NCBI GenBank assembly: GCA_020632235.1
Contig: JACKFY010000004.1
Coordinates: forward strand, 4,811-68,810
Direction of reading: 5' to 3'
DNA from: Pseudomonadales bacterium
GTDB taxonomy: Bacteria > Patescibacteriota > Microgenomatia > UBA1400 > PJMF01
Length of the DNA stretch: 64,000 nt
The translations under genes and the position numbers were made by a program. Position 1 is the stretch's first letter, and each line of letters begins with the position of its first letter. This document shows, piece by piece, positions 16,513 through 22,093 of this stretch. The notes below the pieces were generated by a model. It did no database searches, was not told the origin of the DNA, and saw only the letters and a program-made list of their open reading frames with translations.

Positions 16513-17049
16513 ATGAGAAAACGATACAACAGTAATAGACAAAGTAGTGTGGTGGCCAACCACCGCATTCGTTTTCCCACAGTCCGCGTAGTCTCAGACA
16601 CTGGTGATGCGCTGGGAGTGTTGCCCATAGCAGAGGCCTTGAGTGCTGCGCAGGATGCGGGTAAAGACTTGGTGCTCGTGACCGACCAAGCAAAGCCACC
16701 GGTCGTCAAAATTATAGATTTGGCAAAATATAAGTACCAGCAACAGCAAAAAGCAGCAGAAAGCAGAAAGAAATCAAAAAGCCAAGACATCAAAGAAGTA
16801 CGCTTTACCCCGTTTATGGGCGAGGGCGACTACCAATCGCGACTCAAAAAAGTGATTGGTTTTTTGCAAAAAGGTGATAAAGTACGCCTGTCGCTCTTGT
16901 TTAAGGGCAGAGCCATCACCAAAAAAGAGTTTGGCTACGAAGTATTTGACAAAGTCATTGCCCAGACTGACGATATAGCAACAGTCGAGATAGAGCCAAA
17001 ACTAATGGGCAAAAAACTACTCGCGCAGCTGCAACCAACAAAAAAATAA
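16513..17049 (+). CDS. infC: Translation initiation factor IF-3
   Basis: The VRVVSDTGDALGVLPIAEALSAAQDAGKDLVLVTDQAKPPVVKIIDLAKYKYQQQQK block matches IF-3. The true start may be a non-ATG (ATT/ATA) codon, as is common for infC. Confidence 0.85.
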   Translation: MRKRYNSNRQSSVVANHRIRFPTVRVVSDTGDALGVLPIAEALSAAQDAGKDLVLVTDQAKPPVVKIIDLAKYKYQQQQKAAESRKKSKSQDIKEVRFTPFMGEGDYQSRLKKVIGFLQKGDKVRLSLLFKGRAITKKEFGYEVFDKVIAQTDDIATVEIEPKLMGKKLLAQLQPTKK

Positions 17050-17052
17050 TCT

Positions 17053-17256
17053 ATGAAAAAGATAAAACAAAAAACACGATCTGGGGTAGCAAAGCGCTTT
17101 AAAATTACCGCTACGGGCAAAGTGTTGCGCAGATCACAAAACATGCGCCATCGCAGACGAATTAAGAGTAAAAAAGCTATTCGGGCGTACCGCGTGCCAG
17201 TTGAGGTCAAAGGCGTGTGGTCACGAAAGGTAAAACGCATGATGGGACTGGCTTAA
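17053..17256 (+). CDS. rpmI: 50S ribosomal protein L35
   Basis: A 67-aa basic protein in the conserved infC-rpmI-rplT position. Confidence 0.8.
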   Translation: MKKIKQKTRSGVAKRFKITATGKVLRRSQNMRHRRRIKSKKAIRAYRVPVEVKGVWSRKVKRMMGLA

Positions 17257-17276
17257 ACTAACAAACAGAGGATGCT

Positions 17277-17630
17277 ATGCCAAGAGTAAAAACAGGAGTT
17301 ACCAGAAGACGTCGTCATAAAAAAGTACTCAAAGCCACCAAGGGCTATCGCGGTGCTAACAGCAGGTTATACAAACGCGCGCACGAAGCATACCTTCACG
17401 CTGGAGCCTATGCCTACATCGGCCGAAAACTACGCAAGCGCGACATGAGAAAACTCTGGATTATCCGCATCAACGCGGGACTCAGGCAAATAGATGAGAA
17501 CTATAGTTACTCAGAATTTATTGGCAAGCTCAACAAGTCTGATGTAGGCCTCAACCGAAAGATGTTAGCCCAGCTGGCTGCCACTGACTTTACCGCCTTT
17601 ACCAGCGTGGTTCGAAAGGTGATGGGGTAA
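17277..17630 (+). CDS. rplT: 50S ribosomal protein L20
   Basis: MPRVKTGVTRRRRHKKVLKATKGYRGANSRLYKRAHE matches the L20 N-terminus. Confidence 0.9.
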   Translation: MPRVKTGVTRRRRHKKVLKATKGYRGANSRLYKRAHEAYLHAGAYAYIGRKLRKRDMRKLWIIRINAGLRQIDENYSYSEFIGKLNKSDVGLNRKMLAQLAATDFTAFTSVVRKVMG

Positions 17631-17655
17631 AACACACACCAACGAAAAAAACAAA

Positions 17656-17711
17656 CCCCTCACCTTGCGGTCTGGCCGACTGGACCAGAAAGCAATGGTG
17701 AGGGGTTTTTG
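17656..17711 (+). terminator. Rho-independent terminator after rplT
   Basis: CCCCTCACC ... GGTGAGGGG stem with a structured loop, then TTTTT. Confidence 0.7.
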
Positions 17712-17732
17712 ATATACTGAAGGCTAGAAGCT

Positions 17733-19595
17733 ATGAAAACAAAACAACTCTATCTATCTGATTCATATCTTAAGCAGGCTGATGCAAAGGTAGCTGAAAT
17801 AGAGCAGAATGAAAAAATTACTGTTGTGTATCTTGATCAGACTATTTTTTATGCCCAAGGTGGGGGGCAACCGGCTGATATAGGTATTATTGCAGGAAAA
17901 AATGGGACGCTAACCGTTTCTCATGTTTCATACAACAACGGCAAAATACAACATAAAGGTATGCTTTCTGGAACTCTTGAGGAGAATGATGTGGTTACAC
18001 TCACCATCGACTGGAAAAAACGCTATGAAAACATGCAACTCCACACAGCAGGACACGTTTTGGACCAAGCTGTTAAAAATATCATTCCAAATGTGTATGG
18101 GGTAGATGGCACACACGGCATTCAAGGAAAAAACTACATAGAGTTTAACGAAGAAATCAAACCAGATCAACTTCCCCAAATTCAAAAAGAAATAGAGAAC
18201 ATCTGTGCTGCGGGAGAGGACATCACAACACAGATGGTTACCCATGCAGAGATTAAAGCAATGGGCATACACCTGCCATTTGATTTGCCAAAAAATAAAG
18301 ACCTGCGCATCATGAGTATTGGTTCATACCCCGCAATGCCTGACGGAGGCACACAGCTAAAAAATACAGGTGAGTGCTGGCCTATTTCCGTCGATTCTGT
18401 ACAAGAGAAAAAGAATCTTTGGAGAGTACAGTACTCGGTAAAACATCCACAACACAAGAAATCACCAGAAAGTATTAAAAAGAAAAAAGAGGAGCACCTA
18501 CCACTAGTATCTTTAGAAGAGCTTAAAGTTCACGCCACTCGACTTGAACAAGAGGTTAAGGCCGACGTGGATGAAGGATCACCAGACCTCCACACCAAGT
18601 ACCTGGGGAAAAACGGTCTGTTTAACCAGCTAGCAAAAACAATCAAAGATATTGGCCCAGCAGAGCGAAAACAAGCAGGGATGCTGCTCAATCAGGTAAA
18701 AGCAAAGATTACCGCAGCACTAAAACAAACAACAACCAAGCAACAACATAGCGCCATCGACCTGACCATGCCAGGAACAGCCCCACATGTGGGGCATCTG
18801 CACCCCGTGACGCAGGCAATGCGCGAGATCACCGATATTTTTGAGCAAATTGGCTTTACCCGCGTGCGCTACCCAGAGGTAGACTGGGACTGGTACGTCT
18901 TTGAAAGCCTCAACATGCCCCCCCACCATCCCGCCCGAGACGAGTGGGAGACGTTTTTTGTTGACGTGCCAGATACCACCAAAGATGTAGCGTATGACTC
19001 AAACAACCCGCGTAAACGACACCCCAGTTTAGTAGGGGGCAAGGTGGTGCTGACCACGCACACCTCAAACGGCCAAGTACGCGAGATGGAGCGCATGGAC
19101 AGCACCCCACCTATTCGCTTTATCAACATTGCGCGGTGCTACCGCAGACAACAAGACGCCACCCACACGCAAATGTTTCATCAGTTTGAGGGACTGGTGA
19201 TAGACAAACACATCACCATTCAGCACTTAAAGGGCACACTCGACCACTTTGCCCAGCATTTTTACGGACCAACGGTCAAAAGTAGAATTAGACCGTTTCA
19301 CTTTCAGTTTACCGAGCCATCATTTGAGGTTGATTTTTCATGCCATATTTGTGACGGCACAGGGGTAGTAAACGGCGAAAAATGTAAATTTTGCAAATCT
19401 GGCTGGCATGAAGTAGGTGGAGCAGGCATGGTGCACCCCAATGTACTGAAAGCCGGCGGTATCGACCCCGACATATACACCGGCTTTGCCTTTGGCTGGG
19501 GGGTAGAGCGCACCTATACGCTCAAACCAGGGCTCAACATTGATGATATTCGATTGCTATACAGCAGTAACATACAGTTTTTGGAGCAGTTTTAG
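17733..19595 (+). CDS. pheS: Phenylalanyl-tRNA synthetase alpha subunit with an N-terminal AlaX-like (tRNA editing, tRNA_SAD-type) domain fused
   Basis: Residues 1-245 match AlaX (VVYLDQTIFYAQGGGQPADIG, HTAGH zinc motif). Residues 260-620 match PheS (LTTHTSNGQVREM, FQFTEPSFEVD, GWHEVGGAGMVHPNVL, GFAFGWGVER). It is one uninterrupted 620-aa ORF. Confidence 0.8.
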   Translation: MKTKQLYLSDSYLKQADAKVAEIEQNEKITVVYLDQTIFYAQGGGQPADIGIIAGKNGTLTVSHVSYNNGKIQHKGMLSGTLEENDVVTLTIDWKKRYENMQLHTAGHVLDQAVKNIIPNVYGVDGTHGIQGKNYIEFNEEIKPDQLPQIQKEIENICAAGEDITTQMVTHAEIKAMGIHLPFDLPKNKDLRIMSIGSYPAMPDGGTQLKNTGECWPISVDSVQEKKNLWRVQYSVKHPQHKKSPESIKKKKEEHLPLVSLEELKVHATRLEQEVKADVDEGSPDLHTKYLGKNGLFNQLAKTIKDIGPAERKQAGMLLNQVKAKITAALKQTTTKQQHSAIDLTMPGTAPHVGHLHPVTQAMREITDIFEQIGFTRVRYPEVDWDWYVFESLNMPPHHPARDEWETFFVDVPDTTKDVAYDSNNPRKRHPSLVGGKVVLTTHTSNGQVREMERMDSTPPIRFINIARCYRRQQDATHTQMFHQFEGLVIDKHITIQHLKGTLDHFAQHFYGPTVKSRIRPFHFQFTEPSFEVDFSCHICDGTGVVNGEKCKFCKSGWHEVGGAGMVHPNVLKAGGIDPDIYTGFAFGWGVERTYTLKPGLNIDDIRLLYSSNIQFLEQF

Positions 19596-19597
19596 GT

Positions 19598-20041
19598 ATG
19601 TCAAAAACCAATCACAACTCCGCCTTTATTGATGCCCAAAATCTCTACCTTGGAGTCAAAGCCTCTGGATGGAAACTTGATTATAAAAAACTTCTCCTTT
19701 ACTTAAAGCATAAGTTTGAGATTATAAAAGCATATTTATTTATAGGATATGTTGAAGAAAATAAGTACCTATATCAACAACTAGAGAATTATGGATATGA
19801 ACTCATGTTTAAACCAACAATTTCATATATACAAAATGGAAAAGTGATGAGAAAAGGGAATGTTGATGCAAAGAAACAAACTACTGCATGTTCTCACTCC
19901 AACAAAAAATTATTCTCAACTTTTACTACCCTAGGTGCGGTACATCACACACTTAGAAAAAATAAAAGAGTCAATAAAGAAAAAAATGGTCAGACTCGGC
20001 CTTCGGTCGAAACCTTAGGCGTATCTGGCCGTGGGTGTTGA
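19598..20041 (+). CDS. NYN (LabA-like) domain protein, probably a truncated remnant
   Basis: N-terminal AFIDAQNLYLG...DYKKLLLYL...AYLFIGY and KGNVDAK match NYN-domain blocks. The C-terminal half is low-complexity and lacks the third Asp motif. The gene is AT-rich compared with pheS and pheT. Confidence 0.45.
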   Translation: MSKTNHNSAFIDAQNLYLGVKASGWKLDYKKLLLYLKHKFEIIKAYLFIGYVEENKYLYQQLENYGYELMFKPTISYIQNGKVMRKGNVDAKKQTTACSHSNKKLFSTFTTLGAVHHTLRKNKRVNKEKNGQTRPSVETLGVSGRGC

Positions 20042-20077: not shown

Positions 20078-22093
20078 ATGAACATCCTCATTCCACACCA
20101 CTGGCTCCTTGAACACCTCGATACAACTGCCACACCAGCAGAGATACAAACACTCCTATCACTCTCTGGCCCTTCAGTTGAGATGATCTATGAGAAACCA
20201 GCCCCTGTCACAACAAAAGCGGGAGTCGAGTCTGTGTACGACATCGAGGTCACCACCAACAGGGTAGACAGCATGTCTGTTCGCGGCATCGCCAGAGAAG
20301 CGGCAGTTATCTTACACCAAGCAGGGAGTTCTTCATCGCTGAAAGCATTTGAGCCACACATGCCAGATAACTCAGGCGAACTACCACTCCCAACGATCAC
20401 AGATGAGAGCCAGCTATGCAACCGTATTGTGTGTGTAGTGCTCGATCAACTAGAGAGAACGCCAACACCGGACTGGATGGCAGAGCGACTGGGGTTAGTC
20501 GATATTCAAACTCACGACAGCGCTGTGGACATTACCAACTACGTCACCCACGAGATAGGCCATCCCATTCACGCCTTTGACTATGATGCTATTATGGCTC
20601 TGGGTGGCGAGATTATCATCAAAAAAGCTGATGCAGGAAAACAGTTTGTGACGCTTGATGGTCAAGCATACACCACTGTTGGCGGAGAAGTTGTGTTTGA
20701 AAACGAGTCAGGCGAGATCATCGACCTGCCGGCTATTAAAGGTACAAACAACACCTCAATACACAAAGATACCAAGCGCATACTACTGTGGACAGAAAAC
20801 CTCTCTGCCGCGGATGTACGGTTTGCCTCGATGACACACGCCATTCGTACCACTGCTGCGCAACTGAATGAAAAACATGTTGACCCCCACCTCGCCCTCC
20901 CCACGCTACTCAAGGCAGTCGAGCTATACCAATCACTCTGTCATGCACGAGTAGCCTCGCCTGTCCTTGACCTTTTTCCAGGAAAAACAACCCAACCAAG
21001 CGTTAAGATGAATCATGCTATGTTTGCGCGCTACCTAGGTATTACACTTTCTCCAAAACAGGTGCAAACAATCTTGCGGCAGTTAGAGTGTAGTGTAGTG
21101 TTTAATGCGCAAACACAACACTACAGCATCACCCCGCCCACCTTTCGCAGCGACCTTACCATTCCCGCCGATATTGTCGAAGAAATTGCCCGCATTTACG
21201 GCTATCACACCATCCCAAGTGTGCTGATGGACGGGTCTATTCCCACCAAAAAACAAGAAGGTGTGCATTTTAAGATTGAGAGAACACTCAAAGAATTTCT
21301 GGCCCACACAGGCTGGCAAGAGCTCTATACCTACTCAACGGTAAGCAGCGAGCTGGCAGAGCAATCAGGGTATGCACTCACCGATCATCTCGCCCTCCAA
21401 AACCCACTCGACACCGATCATGTCTACCTACGTCGTTCTCTCATTCCGTCACTTCTAGAGGCAGCAGAACAAAACTCCACTCGTACACAACTAGAGTTTT
21501 TTGAAGTAGCCAATGTCTATCATCCACAAAAAGAGGGACTGCCACATGAGGTTATGACGTTGTGCATGCTCACCACTACTTCATATCTCGGGTTCAAAGG
21601 CTCTATCGAGGCACTCCTGCGAGAGTACTTCCAAACAATCGAAGTAACAGAGGCAACAGCAAACAATACTACCGTACTCCAAGCAGGAGAAATAGCAGTA
21701 CACCAAAACGGATTGGAGCACGTCATCGGTACCATCCAGGTGCTAAAAAACAACTACTACGCAGCACAGATCGTCATTGACCAGTTAGCGCGCGTTGCGC
21801 GCACCCACCCCACCTACACCCCCCCACCGGCTACCGCCGAGATTATCGAAGATATGACGTTCTCTTTTACAAAGCTGCCAGAAATTGGGCCGCTGTTGGC
21901 GTTTATAGCGTCACTCACACCACGTATTTCTGGGGTGGAGCTGAGTAGTATCTACCACAACAACATAAGCGTTCGGCTACAGTTTAACGATCCACATCGC
22001 AATCTATCGTCTGAAGAACTAGAGCCAACGCGAAAACTTCTCGCCGAGAGTATCGAAAAAAAGTACCACGCAACCCTGGTTGGTACCGTGTGA
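20078..22093 (+). CDS. pheT: Phenylalanyl-tRNA synthetase beta subunit
   Basis: N-terminal MNILIPHHWLLEHLD... matches PheT. B3/4 and B5 regions are present. 671 aa. Confidence 0.9.
   Translation: MNILIPHHWLLEHLDTTATPAEIQTLLSLSGPSVEMIYEKPAPVTTKAGVESVYDIEVTTNRVDSMSVRGIAREAAVILHQAGSSSSLKAFEPHMPDNSGELPLPTITDESQLCNRIVCVVLDQLERTPTPDWMAERLGLVDIQTHDSAVDITNYVTHEIGHPIHAFDYDAIMALGGEIIIKKADAGKQFVTLDGQAYTTVGGEVVFENESGEIIDLPAIKGTNNTSIHKDTKRILLWTENLSAADVRFASMTHAIRTTAAQLNEKHVDPHLALPTLLKAVELYQSLCHARVASPVLDLFPGKTTQPSVKMNHAMFARYLGITLSPKQVQTILRQLECSVVFNAQTQHYSITPPTFRSDLTIPADIVEEIARIYGYHTIPSVLMDGSIPTKKQEGVHFKIERTLKEFLAHTGWQELYTYSTVSSELAEQSGYALTDHLALQNPLDTDHVYLRRSLIPSLLEAAEQNSTRTQLEFFEVANVYHPQKEGLPHEVMTLCMLTTTSYLGFKGSIEALLREYFQTIEVTEATANNTTVLQAGEIAVHQNGLEHVIGTIQVLKNNYYAAQIVIDQLARVARTHPTYTPPPATAEIIEDMTFSFTKLPEIGPLLAFIASLTPRISGVELSSIYHNNISVRLQFNDPHRNLSSEELEPTRKLLAESIEKKYHATLVGTV

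What the first reader, a model, noticed from the sequence alone, without database searches (positions are those of the whole stretch)
17733..19595. PheS carries an N-terminal AlaX-like editing domain with a degenerate zinc site
A single 620-aa ORF joins two parts.
- The first roughly 245 aa are AlaX/tRNA_SAD-like (FYAQGGGQPADIG, HTAGHVL).
- The remainder is a complete PheS, including the N-terminal coiled coil, motifs 1-3 and a CxxC-x-CxxC zinc knuckle.
- In the AlaX-like part the second zinc/catalytic motif CGGTH is replaced by DGGTQ, so the module may be a tRNA-binding appendage or use altered catalysis.
- PheRS editing normally resides in PheT B3/4, so an AlaX-type module on the alpha subunit is an unusual architecture.
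- Caveat: the linker region is A-rich (AAAAAGAAAAAAGAG) and this assembly shows homopolymer frame errors elsewhere, so an artefactual fusion must be excluded.
Basis: partly seen in the sequence, partly recalled or inferred. Interest (0 to 1): 0.7.

Follow-up and report, generated by a model that had tools for sequence, protein, structure and literature searches.

The report
PheRS with tethered Asp-type AlaX module
The phenylalanine-tRNA synthetase alpha subunit of this candidate-phyla bacterium really does carry an extra AlaX-type proofreading-like domain, and that domain belongs to a large undescribed subfamily (an aspartate replaces the usual zinc-binding cysteine) that has been joined to this synthetase in three different ways, which suggests a second error-correcting site.

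Summary
The 620-aa ORF (17733-19595, +) is real and is not an assembly artefact. 97 of the best 120 homologs, from NCBI, JGI, ENA and Logan assemblies, have the same AlaX-like + PheS architecture. Their linkers are unrelated in sequence, 16-59 aa long, and always in frame.

The N-terminal 236 aa match AlaX-M end to end (E 1e-40). The predicted fold is very confident (pLDDT 94-98) and superposes on AlaRS editing and AlaX structures.

The "degenerate" zinc site is a conserved variant. H104 and H108 are invariant, D204 is 96/97, and position 208 is Q or H. The same Asp-type module occurs in about 120 stand-alone proteins of roughly 230-240 aa and at the C-terminus of PheT in at least 19 proteins.

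Stand-alone copies lie next to pheS or pheT in 5 of 11 contexts examined, and once 2 nt upstream of trpS.

PheT here keeps most of its B3/4 editing residues. The module is therefore additional to B3/4 editing, not a replacement for it.

Best reading: a flexibly tethered aminoacyl-tRNA deacylase with a His2-Asp site that works on PheRS-bound tRNA. The substrate is unknown. I found no paper describing this. I rate it a new variant of a known kind, of moderately high interest.

The parts
17733..19595 (+). Fused gene: Asp-type AlaX-M-like module + linker + complete PheS (620 aa plus stop codon)
17733..18440 (+). AlaX-M-like module, aa 1-236. It has an N-terminal beta-barrel (aa 1-93) and an editing core (aa 94-236).
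   Evidence: NCBIfam AlaXM matched 3-236 = 1-233/234, E 1e-40. pLDDT 94-98. Foldseek: 2zze rmsd 2.4 A over 251 columns; 3kew TM 0.85.
17859..17879 (+). Gly-rich motif G43-G-G-Q-P-A-D49
   Evidence: G43, G44, Q46 and D49 are invariant in 96-97 fused homologs. They are also conserved in canonical AlaX-M.
18042..18056 (+). First metal/catalytic motif H104-T-A-G-H108
   Evidence: H104, G107 and H108 are invariant. They map to E. coli AlaRS H564 and H568.
18342..18356 (+). Second motif D204-G-G-T-Q208, which replaces the canonical C-G-G-T-H
   Evidence: D in 96/97 alpha-fused proteins; GG invariant; position 208 is Q in 71 and H in 26. Maps to E. coli C666..H670.
18441..18512 (+). Flexible low-complexity linker, about aa 237-260 (Lys/Ser/Pro-rich)
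   Evidence: pLDDT below 50 for aa 242-255. In homologs the linker is 16-59 aa, not conserved, rich in S/T/K/P, and always in frame.
18513..18752 (+). PheS N-terminal helical arm (coiled coil), about aa 261-340
   Evidence: Pfam Phe_tRNA-synt_N, aa 286-340. Predicted helices at 261-281, 296-306 and 309-334.
18756..19592 (+). PheS class II catalytic core, aa 342-620
   Evidence: PF01409, 5e-79. TIGR00468 above its cut-off. Foldseek matches PheS alpha chains at E about 1e-29.
19341..19394 (+). CxxC-x10-CxxC insert in the PheS core (C537, C540, C551, C554). It is clade-wide and not specific to the fusion.
   Evidence: Invariant in alignment A1. A CxxC...CxxC pattern was found in 81/81 PheS of the loci, fused or not.
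17653..17713 (+). Strong hairpin followed by U5, between rplT and the fused gene (terminator or attenuator)
   Evidence: dG -41.2 kcal/mol, z -6.6, 0 of 200 shuffles as stable. No Rfam family matched.
16513..17630 (+). Upstream operon genes: infC (16513-17049), rpmI (17053-17256), rplT (17277-17630)
   Evidence: ORFs. Gene identities rest on the translations as read from the sequence and on the same gene order in the Pfam-annotated loci L087 and L092. Their translations found matching ORFs upstream of pheS in most related loci. I did not run a family scan on the window copies.
20078..22093 (+). pheT, the PheRS beta subunit (671 aa). It has B1 (weak), B3/4, B5, the CLM domain and a weak B8; it lacks B2.
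   Evidence: Pfam. PDB alignments. B3/4 residues equivalent to Tth T249, N250 and H261 are kept; E334 is replaced by W.

Best explanation
The gene encodes a genuine PheRS alpha subunit. A complete, well-folded AlaX-M-type module is attached to its N-terminus by a flexible linker of about 20 residues. The module belongs to a distinct Asp-type AlaX subfamily. In this subfamily the Cys of the CxxxH zinc motif is always Asp, and the last His is relaxed to Q, H, L or I. The HxxxH motif, the Gly-rich loop and the other core residues are kept.

I propose that the module is a catalytically active aminoacyl-tRNA deacylase with a His-His-Asp metal or catalytic site. It is held at the base of the PheS helical arm, where it can sample the 3' end of tRNA bound to PheRS. 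This would give PheRS a second proofreading site in addition to B3/4 on the beta subunit.

Shown:
- the fusion is real;
- the fold and family assignment;
- strict conservation of the variant site;
- the recurrent physical and genomic link to PheRS.

Inferred:
- hydrolytic activity;
- metal binding by His2-Asp;
- action on tRNAPhe.

Unknown: which aminoacyl group is removed. Candidates are a non-cognate aromatic amino acid (m-/o-Tyr, DOPA), a D-amino acid, or Ser/Gly/Ala.
For: 1. The fusion is real. 97 of the best 120 homologs from NCBI, JGI, ENA and Logan are fused at 45-66% identity. Linker sequences are unrelated and in frame.

2. The module is an AlaX-M homolog. It matches the profile end to end at E 1e-40. 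It has pLDDT 94-98 and superposes on 2zze and 3kew.

3. The active-site positions look like they are under purifying selection. G43, G44, Q46, D49, H74, R97, H104, G107, H108, H128, R192, G205 and G206 are invariant, and D204 is 96/97. The same core residues are conserved in canonical AlaX-M.

4. The link to PheRS appears in three topologies.
- Alpha-N fusion: about 97 clusters.
- Beta-C fusion: 19 proteins, all Asp-type, and in L085 and L086 each sits next to an ordinary unfused pheS.
- Separate gene in the pheST neighbourhood: L047, L087, L088, L090 and L092. L092 has the same synteny as the window, with the module gene ending 20 nt before pheS.

5. In an NJ tree, 36 of 40 Asp-type modules form one clade.

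6. The basic beta-hairpin of free-standing Cys-type AlaX is neutral or acidic in the Asp-type. Net charge over aa 219-233 is +4.4 (n=107) in the Cys-type, -0.75 in alpha-fused and -0.6 in beta-fused modules. This fits a module that depends on a partner to hold the tRNA.

7. The distribution is patchy. On the PheS tree, 9 fused taxa need at least 8 state changes, and rplT-pheS spacing shows clean presence or absence. This is typical of accessory editing factors and not of an essential structural part.
Against: - No activity, metal content or substrate has been measured, and no solved structure is Asp-type.
- The AF2 pTM is 0.49, so the position of the module relative to the PheS active site is undefined.
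- PheT keeps T, N and H of the B3/4 editing site, so a second editing site is not obviously needed.
- Most Asp-type proteins are stand-alone, and 4 of 11 contexts examined have no synthetase nearby. The family is therefore not exclusively tied to PheRS.
- One copy is coupled to trpS.
- A precedent exists for a non-catalytic AlaX-like appendage on TrpRS (PMC3680381).
- I did not examine the gene neighbourhoods of Cys-type AlaX as a control.
Confidence: 0.5

Rival explanations
1. The module is a non-catalytic tRNA-binding or aminoacylation-assisting appendage. It would resemble the AlaX-like domain on apicomplexan TrpRS and might compensate for the B2 domain that PheT lacks.
For: - There is a precedent: the Pf-WRS AXD plus linker is needed for tRNA binding and aminoacylation (PMC3680381).
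- PheT here lacks B2.
- Two of the four canonical zinc ligands are changed.
- The linker in the window is Lys-rich.
Against: - In Pf-WRS all four ligands are lost (D/S/N/V). Here HxxGH, D, GG and the Gly-rich loop are invariant or nearly so across about 240 proteins.
- The module is acidic overall (mean net charge -3.8), and its one basic hairpin has been neutralised.
- B2 is lost across the whole clade, including about 45 unfused relatives.
- Linker charge averages +0.3 and is not conserved.
- The patchy presence among close relatives argues against an essential binding role.
Confidence: 0.2
2. The module is an ordinary AlaX that clears Ser- or Gly-tRNAAla in trans. Its link to pheST would reflect only co-expression in a translation operon, and the fusions would be neutral read-through events in compact genomes.
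For: - The closest characterised relatives are AlaX-M and the AlaRS editing domain.
- Sources annotate stand-alone members as 'Ser-tRNA(Ala) deacylase AlaX'.
- Most family members are stand-alone.
- A split form sits 20 nt from pheS, so a fusion needs only the loss of a stop codon.
Against: - Independent fusions to two different PheRS subunits, at opposite termini, plus adjacency on both sides of pheST, are hard to explain by chance.
- Every PheRS-linked copy examined is Asp-type, except two Cys-type alpha fusions (P0226, P0127).
- The basic hairpin region is neutralised, and the K/R at position 231 is kept in only 18 of 36 Asp-type modules. From memory, this region holds the Arg that gives AlaRS and AlaX-M their G3:U70 specificity. 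My mapping of E. coli R693 onto it is approximate.
- I could not test whether these genomes' AlaRS keeps its own editing domain.
Confidence: 0.2
3. The fusion is an assembly or frameshift artefact: a homopolymer error in the A-rich linker joined two separate genes.
For: - The linker DNA is A-rich, with an A6 run at 18483.
- A split arrangement exists in relatives (L092, L047).
Against: - The identical 620-aa protein comes from two contigs and two sources.
- About 97 fused homologs from four assembly sources have different linkers of 16-59 aa, all in frame.
- There is no stop codon in frame.
- GC content shows no break at the junction.
Confidence: 0.01

Closest known systems
AlaX-M (AlaXp-M) trans-editing protein, e.g. 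P. horikoshii PH0108 (PDB 2E1B), and the AlaRS editing domain (PDB 2ZZE)
   Same: - Same two-part fold, a beta-barrel with a Gly-rich loop plus an editing core.
- The HxxxH motif, the GG of the second motif, and R97, H128, R192 and Y234 are conserved.
- The W-x2-R-Y-x2-M helix is shared with 2E1B.
   Different: - The Cys zinc ligand is replaced by an invariant Asp, and the fourth ligand His is relaxed to Q, H, L or I.
- The basic C-terminal hairpin is neutralised.
- The NCBIfam score is 137 bits, below the 300-bit equivalog cut-off.
- The module is covalently or genomically attached to PheRS, not to AlaRS.
AlaX-like domain (AXD) at the N-terminus of apicomplexan TrpRS (Khan et al. 2013, PMC3680381)
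   Same: An AlaX-family domain sits at the N-terminus of a synthetase other than AlaRS or ThrRS, joined by a flexible linker. One Asp-type stand-alone gene lies 2 nt upstream of trpS.
   Different: - The AXD is AlaX-S-like (about 155 aa, no beta-barrel). It has lost all four zinc ligands and both motifs, and the authors propose that it provides tRNA binding and not editing.
- The module here is AlaX-M-like (236 aa), keeps HxxxH and has a fixed Asp.
- It is bacterial, and it is attached to PheRS.
PheRS B3/B4 editing domain on the beta subunit (clears Tyr- and m-Tyr-tRNAPhe; review PMC11295145)
   Same: It would serve the same enzyme and tRNA. Both are post-transfer proofreading modules built into PheRS.
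   Different: - The fold is unrelated.
- B3/4 is still present in this window's PheT, with T, N and H conserved and E334 replaced by W.
- The AlaX-type module is therefore an addition, not a substitute.
Editing domains that occur both fused and free-standing: ProRS INS with YbaK/ProXp, and ThrRS N2 with ThrRS-ed
   Same: The same evolutionary pattern: one hydrolytic module is found in cis, in trans, and patchily distributed among close relatives.
   Different: These are different folds and different partner synthetases. In the literature I could search, no case was found of one module fused alternatively to two different subunits of a heteromeric synthetase.

Membership tests
AlaX / AlaRS-editing (tRNA_SAD) superfamily, AlaX-M type | Beta-barrel plus editing-core fold | tested here: met
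   AF2 pLDDT 94-98 over aa 1-240. Foldseek: 2zze rmsd 2.4 A, 3kew TM 0.85.
AlaX / AlaRS-editing (tRNA_SAD) superfamily, AlaX-M type | End-to-end sequence-profile match | tested here: met
   NF040865 positions 1-233 of 234, E 1e-40. PDB AlaRS and AlaX hits between 1e-18 and 1e-13.
AlaX / AlaRS-editing (tRNA_SAD) superfamily, AlaX-M type | Score above the curated equivalog or gathering cut-off | tested here: not met
   AlaXM scored 137 bits against a 300-bit cut-off. Pfam tRNA_SAD scored 15.7-17 bits against 24.
AlaX / AlaRS-editing (tRNA_SAD) superfamily, AlaX-M type | HxxxH motif (first two zinc ligands) | tested here: met
   H104 and H108 are invariant in 97 homologs. They map to E. coli H564 and H568.
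AlaX / AlaRS-editing (tRNA_SAD) superfamily, AlaX-M type | CxxxH motif (third and fourth zinc ligands) | tested here: not met
   D204 and Q208 occupy the positions of C666 and H670. D is fixed across the subfamily.
AlaX / AlaRS-editing (tRNA_SAD) superfamily, AlaX-M type | Gly-rich GGGQ motif in the beta-barrel | tested here: met
   G43, G44, Q46 and D49 are invariant.
AlaX / AlaRS-editing (tRNA_SAD) superfamily, AlaX-M type | Basic residues or Arg for G3:U70 acceptor-stem recognition | tested here: inconclusive
   Hairpin 219-233 has net charge +4.4 in Cys-type free AlaX and about -0.7 in PheRS-fused modules. K/R231 is kept in 18 of 36. The mapping of E. coli R693 is approximate.
AlaX / AlaRS-editing (tRNA_SAD) superfamily, AlaX-M type | Zinc binding and Ser-/Gly-tRNAAla deacylase activity | not testable with these tools
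   Needs metal analysis and deacylation assays.
Bacterial PheS (PheRS alpha subunit) | Score above the equivalog cut-off, class II core, N-terminal helical arm | tested here: met
   TIGR00468 scored 258.7 against 237.45. PF01409 at 5e-79 and PF02912. Foldseek matches PheS alpha chains at E about 1e-29.
Bacterial PheS (PheRS alpha subunit) | Partner pheT gene adjacent | tested here: met
   pheT at 20078-22093 has B3_4, B5 and the CLM domain.
Non-catalytic AlaX-like appendage (apicomplexan TrpRS AXD type) | AlaX-like domain linked to the N-terminus of a synthetase other than AlaRS or ThrRS | tested here: met
Non-catalytic AlaX-like appendage (apicomplexan TrpRS AXD type) | Loss of both the HxxxH and CxxxH motifs | tested here: not met
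   HxxGH is invariant and the D-G-G-T motif is fixed, whereas Pf AXD has D/S/N/V at these positions.
Non-catalytic AlaX-like appendage (apicomplexan TrpRS AXD type) | Basic, RNA-binding character | tested here: not met
   The module's mean net charge is -3.8 and the linker's is +0.3.
PheRS with functional B3/4 editing | B3/4 domain with the editing-site residues (Tth T249, N250, H261, E334) | tested here: inconclusive
   T153, N154 and H165 are kept. The E334 position is W, as it is W, L or F in all short B2-less PheT whether fused or not.

The most novel reading that the evidence does not exclude
Asp-type AlaX is a previously unrecognised family of aminoacyl-tRNA deacylases that works with aromatic-amino-acid synthetases. 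It is linked to PheRS through alpha fusion, beta fusion or operon adjacency, and to TrpRS through a translationally coupled gene. Its altered His2-Asp site would clear a class of mischarged tRNAs that the canonical B3/4 site does not handle. Candidates are oxidised or other non-proteinogenic aromatic amino acids, or D-aromatic aminoacyl-tRNAs. PheRS would then have two chemically distinct proofreading sites.
Probability: 0.3. Interest if true: 0.8.

Novelty: new variant of a known kind. Interest (0 to 1): 0.62.

Why it matters
PheRS proofreading is described as residing only in the beta-subunit B3/B4 domain, and AlaX is described in only three isoforms (S, M, L) that act on tRNAAla (2024 review).

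A conserved AlaX-type module recruited to PheRS in three separate ways would be the first AlaX-family proofreading candidate for a synthetase other than AlaRS or ThrRS that keeps an intact catalytic core.

The fixed Cys-to-Asp change is a natural experiment on the role of the metal site in this fold.

The family is large. The search with the stand-alone protein P0153 alone found 330 proteins at E <= 1e-10. It is concentrated in Patescibacteria, whose reduced genomes make the retention of an extra proofreading module notable.

The hypothesis can be tested directly with recombinant protein and mischarged tRNAPhe.

Tried and rejected
1. **The module replaces a dead B3/4 editing site.**
- The Tyr-OH-binding Glu334 is W in this PheT. 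However, W, L or F at this position occurs in every short B2-less PheT, both fused (10/10) and unfused (about 45).
- All 5 beta-fused PheT included in this comparison keep E334.
- T249, N250 and H261 are conserved throughout.
- I therefore rejected the fusion-specific correlation. I could not test whether the presence of an Asp-type module anywhere in a genome correlates with residue 334.

2. **The module compensates for the loss of B2.** B2 is lost across the whole clade, independently of the fusion.

3. **The CxxC...CxxC knuckle is part of the novelty.** It is present in 81/81 PheS examined. My first, stricter pattern undercounted it.

4. **W94, Y98 and M101 form an Asp-type-specific pocket signature.** The same W-x2-R-Y-x2-M helix is present in Cys-type P. 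horikoshii AlaX-M, so I dropped this idea.

5. **A regulatory RNA lies upstream.** No Rfam family matched. Only a terminator-like hairpin was found. The simple terminator scan missed it because of its loop-size limit.

6. **Exact mapping of E. coli AlaRS R693.** hmmalign ended before the hairpin, so the mapping is only approximate.

7. **Novoa et al. 2015 (PMC4400357).** It is not held in the library.

8. **AFDB50 fold search.** That library was unavailable.

9. **Literature.** Six searches found no description of an AlaX-PheRS fusion. The library is open-access only, so absence is not proof.

10. **Whole-genome questions.** The tools do not give whole genomes, so I could not address AlaRS editing-domain status, DTD presence or the tRNAPhe sequence.
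Full report
**Observation**

The window holds a single ATG-initiated ORF of 620 aa at 17733-19595 on the + strand.
- Pfam places a tRNA-synt_2c C-terminal segment at aa 15-95 and a weak tRNA_SAD match at aa 191-232. It places the PheS N-terminal domain at aa 286-340 and the class II PheS core at aa 342-620.
- NCBIfam matches the AlaX-M model over its whole length (aa 3-236 = model positions 1-233 of 234, E 1e-40). The score of 137 bits is below the 300-bit equivalog cut-off.
- NCBIfam matches pheS (TIGR00468) above its cut-off.
- DGGTQ (aa 204-208) aligns with CGGTH of P. horikoshii AlaRS and AlaX. With E. coli AlaRS, H564/H568/C666/H670 map onto H104/H108/D204/Q208.

**Not an artefact**

- The identical protein is on record from two contigs and two sources. 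97 of the best 120 database relatives, at 45-66% identity and from NCBI, JGI, ENA and Logan, have the same fused architecture.
- Across 96 of them the linker is 16-59 residues long, rich in S/T/K/P, unrelated in sequence, and always in frame.
- GC content shows no break at the junction.
- AlphaFold2 with this alignment gives pLDDT 94-98 for aa 1-240. The linker is disordered (aa 242-255), and it is followed by the helical arm and the catalytic core.
- The pTM is 0.49, so the relative orientation of the domains is undefined.
- Foldseek matches the C-terminal part to PheS alpha chains (E about 1e-29). It matches the N-terminal part to the AlaRS editing domain (2zze, rmsd 2.4 A over 251 columns) and to AlaX (3kew, TM 0.85).

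**The zinc site is a conserved variant, not a degenerate one**

- In 97 alpha-fused proteins H104, G107, H108, G205 and G206 are invariant. D204 is present in 96/97. T207 is present in 96/97. Position 208 is Q in 71 and H in 26.
- The Gly-rich loop (G43, G44, Q46, D49) and R97, H74, H128 and R192 are invariant, and they are also conserved in canonical AlaX-M.
- An exhaustive search of 1.84 billion representative proteins with the module found 7370 relatives. Of the best 150, 120 have C...H and 28 have D at the Cys position.
- In a neighbour-joining tree, 36 of 40 Asp-type modules fall in one clade.
- A search seeded with a stand-alone Asp-type protein found 330 proteins at E <= 1e-10. All of the best 120 are Asp-type (72 D...H and 48 D...Q), and almost all are stand-alone proteins of 229-250 aa.
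- Source names point to Microgenomates, Gottesmanbacteria, Shapirobacteria, Dojkabacteria and a cyanobacterial MAG.
- No solved structure is Asp-type.
- The fourth ligand position tolerates Q, H, L and I. If a metal is kept, the site would be His-His-Asp with an open coordination position. This last point is my inference.

**Link to PheRS**

The same Asp-type module is found at the C-terminus of the PheRS beta subunit.
- Five 50%-identity representatives carry it (Pfam).
- A further search added 12 clusters of 796-860 aa among Shapirobacteria-like PheT.
- All 19 beta-fused proteins examined are Asp-type.
- In L085 and L086 the beta-fused pheT follows an ordinary unfused pheS.

Stand-alone genes also lie in the pheST neighbourhood.
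- L047: rplT - module - Nudix-like ORF - pheS - pheT.
- L087: infC - rpmI - rplT - module.
- L088: the module is about 3 kb upstream of pheS.
- L090: the module is directly downstream of pheT.
- L092: thrS - infC - rplT - module - (20 nt) - pheS - pheT - PBP - recG. This order closely follows the window's own.

That makes 5 of 11 stand-alone contexts. The others are as follows.
- One copy is 2 nt upstream of trpS.
- Four have no synthetase nearby.
- One is uninformative.

The alpha fusion is therefore most simply derived from adjacent module and pheS genes.

On a PheS-core tree the 9 fused genes are scattered and need at least 8 state changes. The rplT-pheS distance is about 100-500 nt in most unfused relatives and about 900-1450 nt in most fused ones. 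The module thus behaves as an accessory element that is gained, lost or split often.

**What it is not**

PheT in the window lacks B2 and has Trp at the position of the Tyr-OH-binding Glu334. Both features are shared by all short PheT in this clade, fused or not. The five beta-fused PheT included in that comparison keep Glu334. T249, N250 and H261 are conserved everywhere. The module is therefore not a replacement for a dead B3/4 site, and it does not compensate for B2. The CxxC...CxxC insert in PheS is present in 81/81 relatives and has nothing to do with the fusion.

**Mechanism**

The most likely reading is a flexibly tethered aminoacyl-tRNA deacylase of the AlaX fold that acts on tRNA held by PheRS. 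I put this at about 0.5.

Arguments for retained catalysis:
- the whole active-site constellation is almost invariant;
- one specific replacement (Asp) is fixed, which is not what decay looks like.

Arguments for dependence on PheRS:
- the three attachment topologies;
- the neutralisation of the basic C-terminal hairpin, whose net charge is +4.4 in 107 free Cys-type AlaX, -0.75 in alpha-fused and -0.6 in beta-fused modules.

The substrate is unknown. The co-occurrence with PheRS and once with TrpRS, and one stand-alone copy that lies one gene upstream of a tyrosine decarboxylase gene, hint at aromatic aminoacyl-tRNAs. This is speculation.

**Rivals**

- A non-catalytic tRNA-binding appendage, as proposed for the AlaX-like domain of apicomplexan TrpRS. 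In that domain all four ligands are lost (PMC3680381). Against this rival here: motif conservation and the module's acidic charge.
- An ordinary Ser-/Gly-tRNAAla AlaX that merely travels with pheST. Against this: fusion to two different subunits, and loss of the basic hairpin. It is not excluded, because I could not examine AlaRS in these genomes.
- An assembly artefact, which is effectively excluded.

**Comparison with what is known**

A 2024 review lists only AlaXp-S, -M and -L, all acting on tRNAAla, and places PheRS editing only in B3/B4 (PMC11295145). Six full-text searches found no description of an AlaX-PheRS fusion or of an Asp-type AlaX. The library covers open-access papers and preprints only. 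The proteins themselves are in public databases under automatic names such as 'phenylalanine--tRNA ligase subunit alpha' or 'Ser-tRNA(Ala) deacylase AlaX'.

**Verdict**

- It is a new variant of a known kind.
- Interest is moderately high (0.62). The finding defines a sizeable, uncharacterised subfamily and gives a directly testable hypothesis of a second proofreading site on PheRS.

Noticed in passing
window 20078-22093 (pheT); loci L001-L080: PheT lacks the B2 (OB-fold) domain. It has Trp at the position of the Tyr-OH-binding Glu334 of the B3/4 editing site. W, L or F at this position, with an E, Q or D two residues downstream, is shared by all short PheT of about 660 aa in this clade. Long PheT keep Glu334. 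B3/4 specificity may differ throughout this clade.
   Followed up: partly
window 19598-20041: A 147-aa ORF lies between pheS and pheT. Only its N-terminal half matches the NYN domain (aa 10-92, E 2.5e-7). The region is distinctly AT-rich (GC 0.31-0.35, against 0.47-0.56 in the flanks), which suggests an inserted and possibly decaying gene.
   Followed up: partly
window 19341-19394; PheS of L001-L080: A CxxC-x(n)-CxxC zinc-knuckle-like insert in the PheS catalytic core is present in 81/81 PheS of this set, whether fused or not. It gives a weak DnaJ_CXXCXGXG match. Its function is unknown.
   Followed up: partly
window 17653-17713: A very stable hairpin (dG -41 kcal/mol, z -6.6) followed by U5 lies between rplT and the fused gene. 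It could be a terminator or an attenuator. No Rfam family matched.
   Followed up: partly
L096 6001-7759 and L097 2882-4640: In a Microgenomates MAG, a stand-alone Asp-type AlaX gene ends 2 nt before trpS (TIGR00233, 270 bits). A radical SAM gene lies directly upstream. This recalls the AlaX-like domain fused to apicomplexan TrpRS.
   Followed up: partly
L081 3441-9236 (also L082, L083): A stand-alone Asp-type AlaX (P0129) sits between a radical SAM/SPASM peptide-maturase-like gene and an unknown 265-aa gene. An 821-aa tyrosine decarboxylase (Pyridoxal_deC + tyr_de_CO2_C) follows. This may be a biosynthetic context.
   Followed up: no
L088 4316-5552; L094 5545-6717: In two unrelated contigs, one of them a cyanobacterial MAG, a small Cupin_2 gene of about 135 aa lies directly upstream of the stand-alone Asp-type AlaX gene.
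   Followed up: no
L092 6001-6690 and L098 6001-6696 (same 1.23-Mb contig): One genome carries two Asp-type paralogs. One is next to pheS. The other is in a region with a resolvase, HTH genes and toxin-antitoxin genes, which looks like a mobile region.
   Followed up: no
L047 6720-7070: In the split arrangement, a 116-aa ORF whose sequence fits the Nudix-box pattern lies between the stand-alone module and pheS. I recognised the pattern by reading the sequence and did not run a profile scan.
   Followed up: no
whole window; the source's name for P0001: The source record names the organism 'Pseudomonadales bacterium'. All close relatives of pheS and pheT are Patescibacteria (Microgenomates, Pacebacteria, Woesebacteria) MAGs, and several other TPA assemblies carry the same kind of label. 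This is probably a taxonomic mislabel.
   Followed up: partly
P0226 (627 aa) and P0127 (607 aa): A few alpha-fused PheS carry a Cys-type second motif: CGGTH in P0226, and QSAGH with CGATH in P0127. The fusion is therefore not strictly limited to the Asp-type.
   Followed up: no
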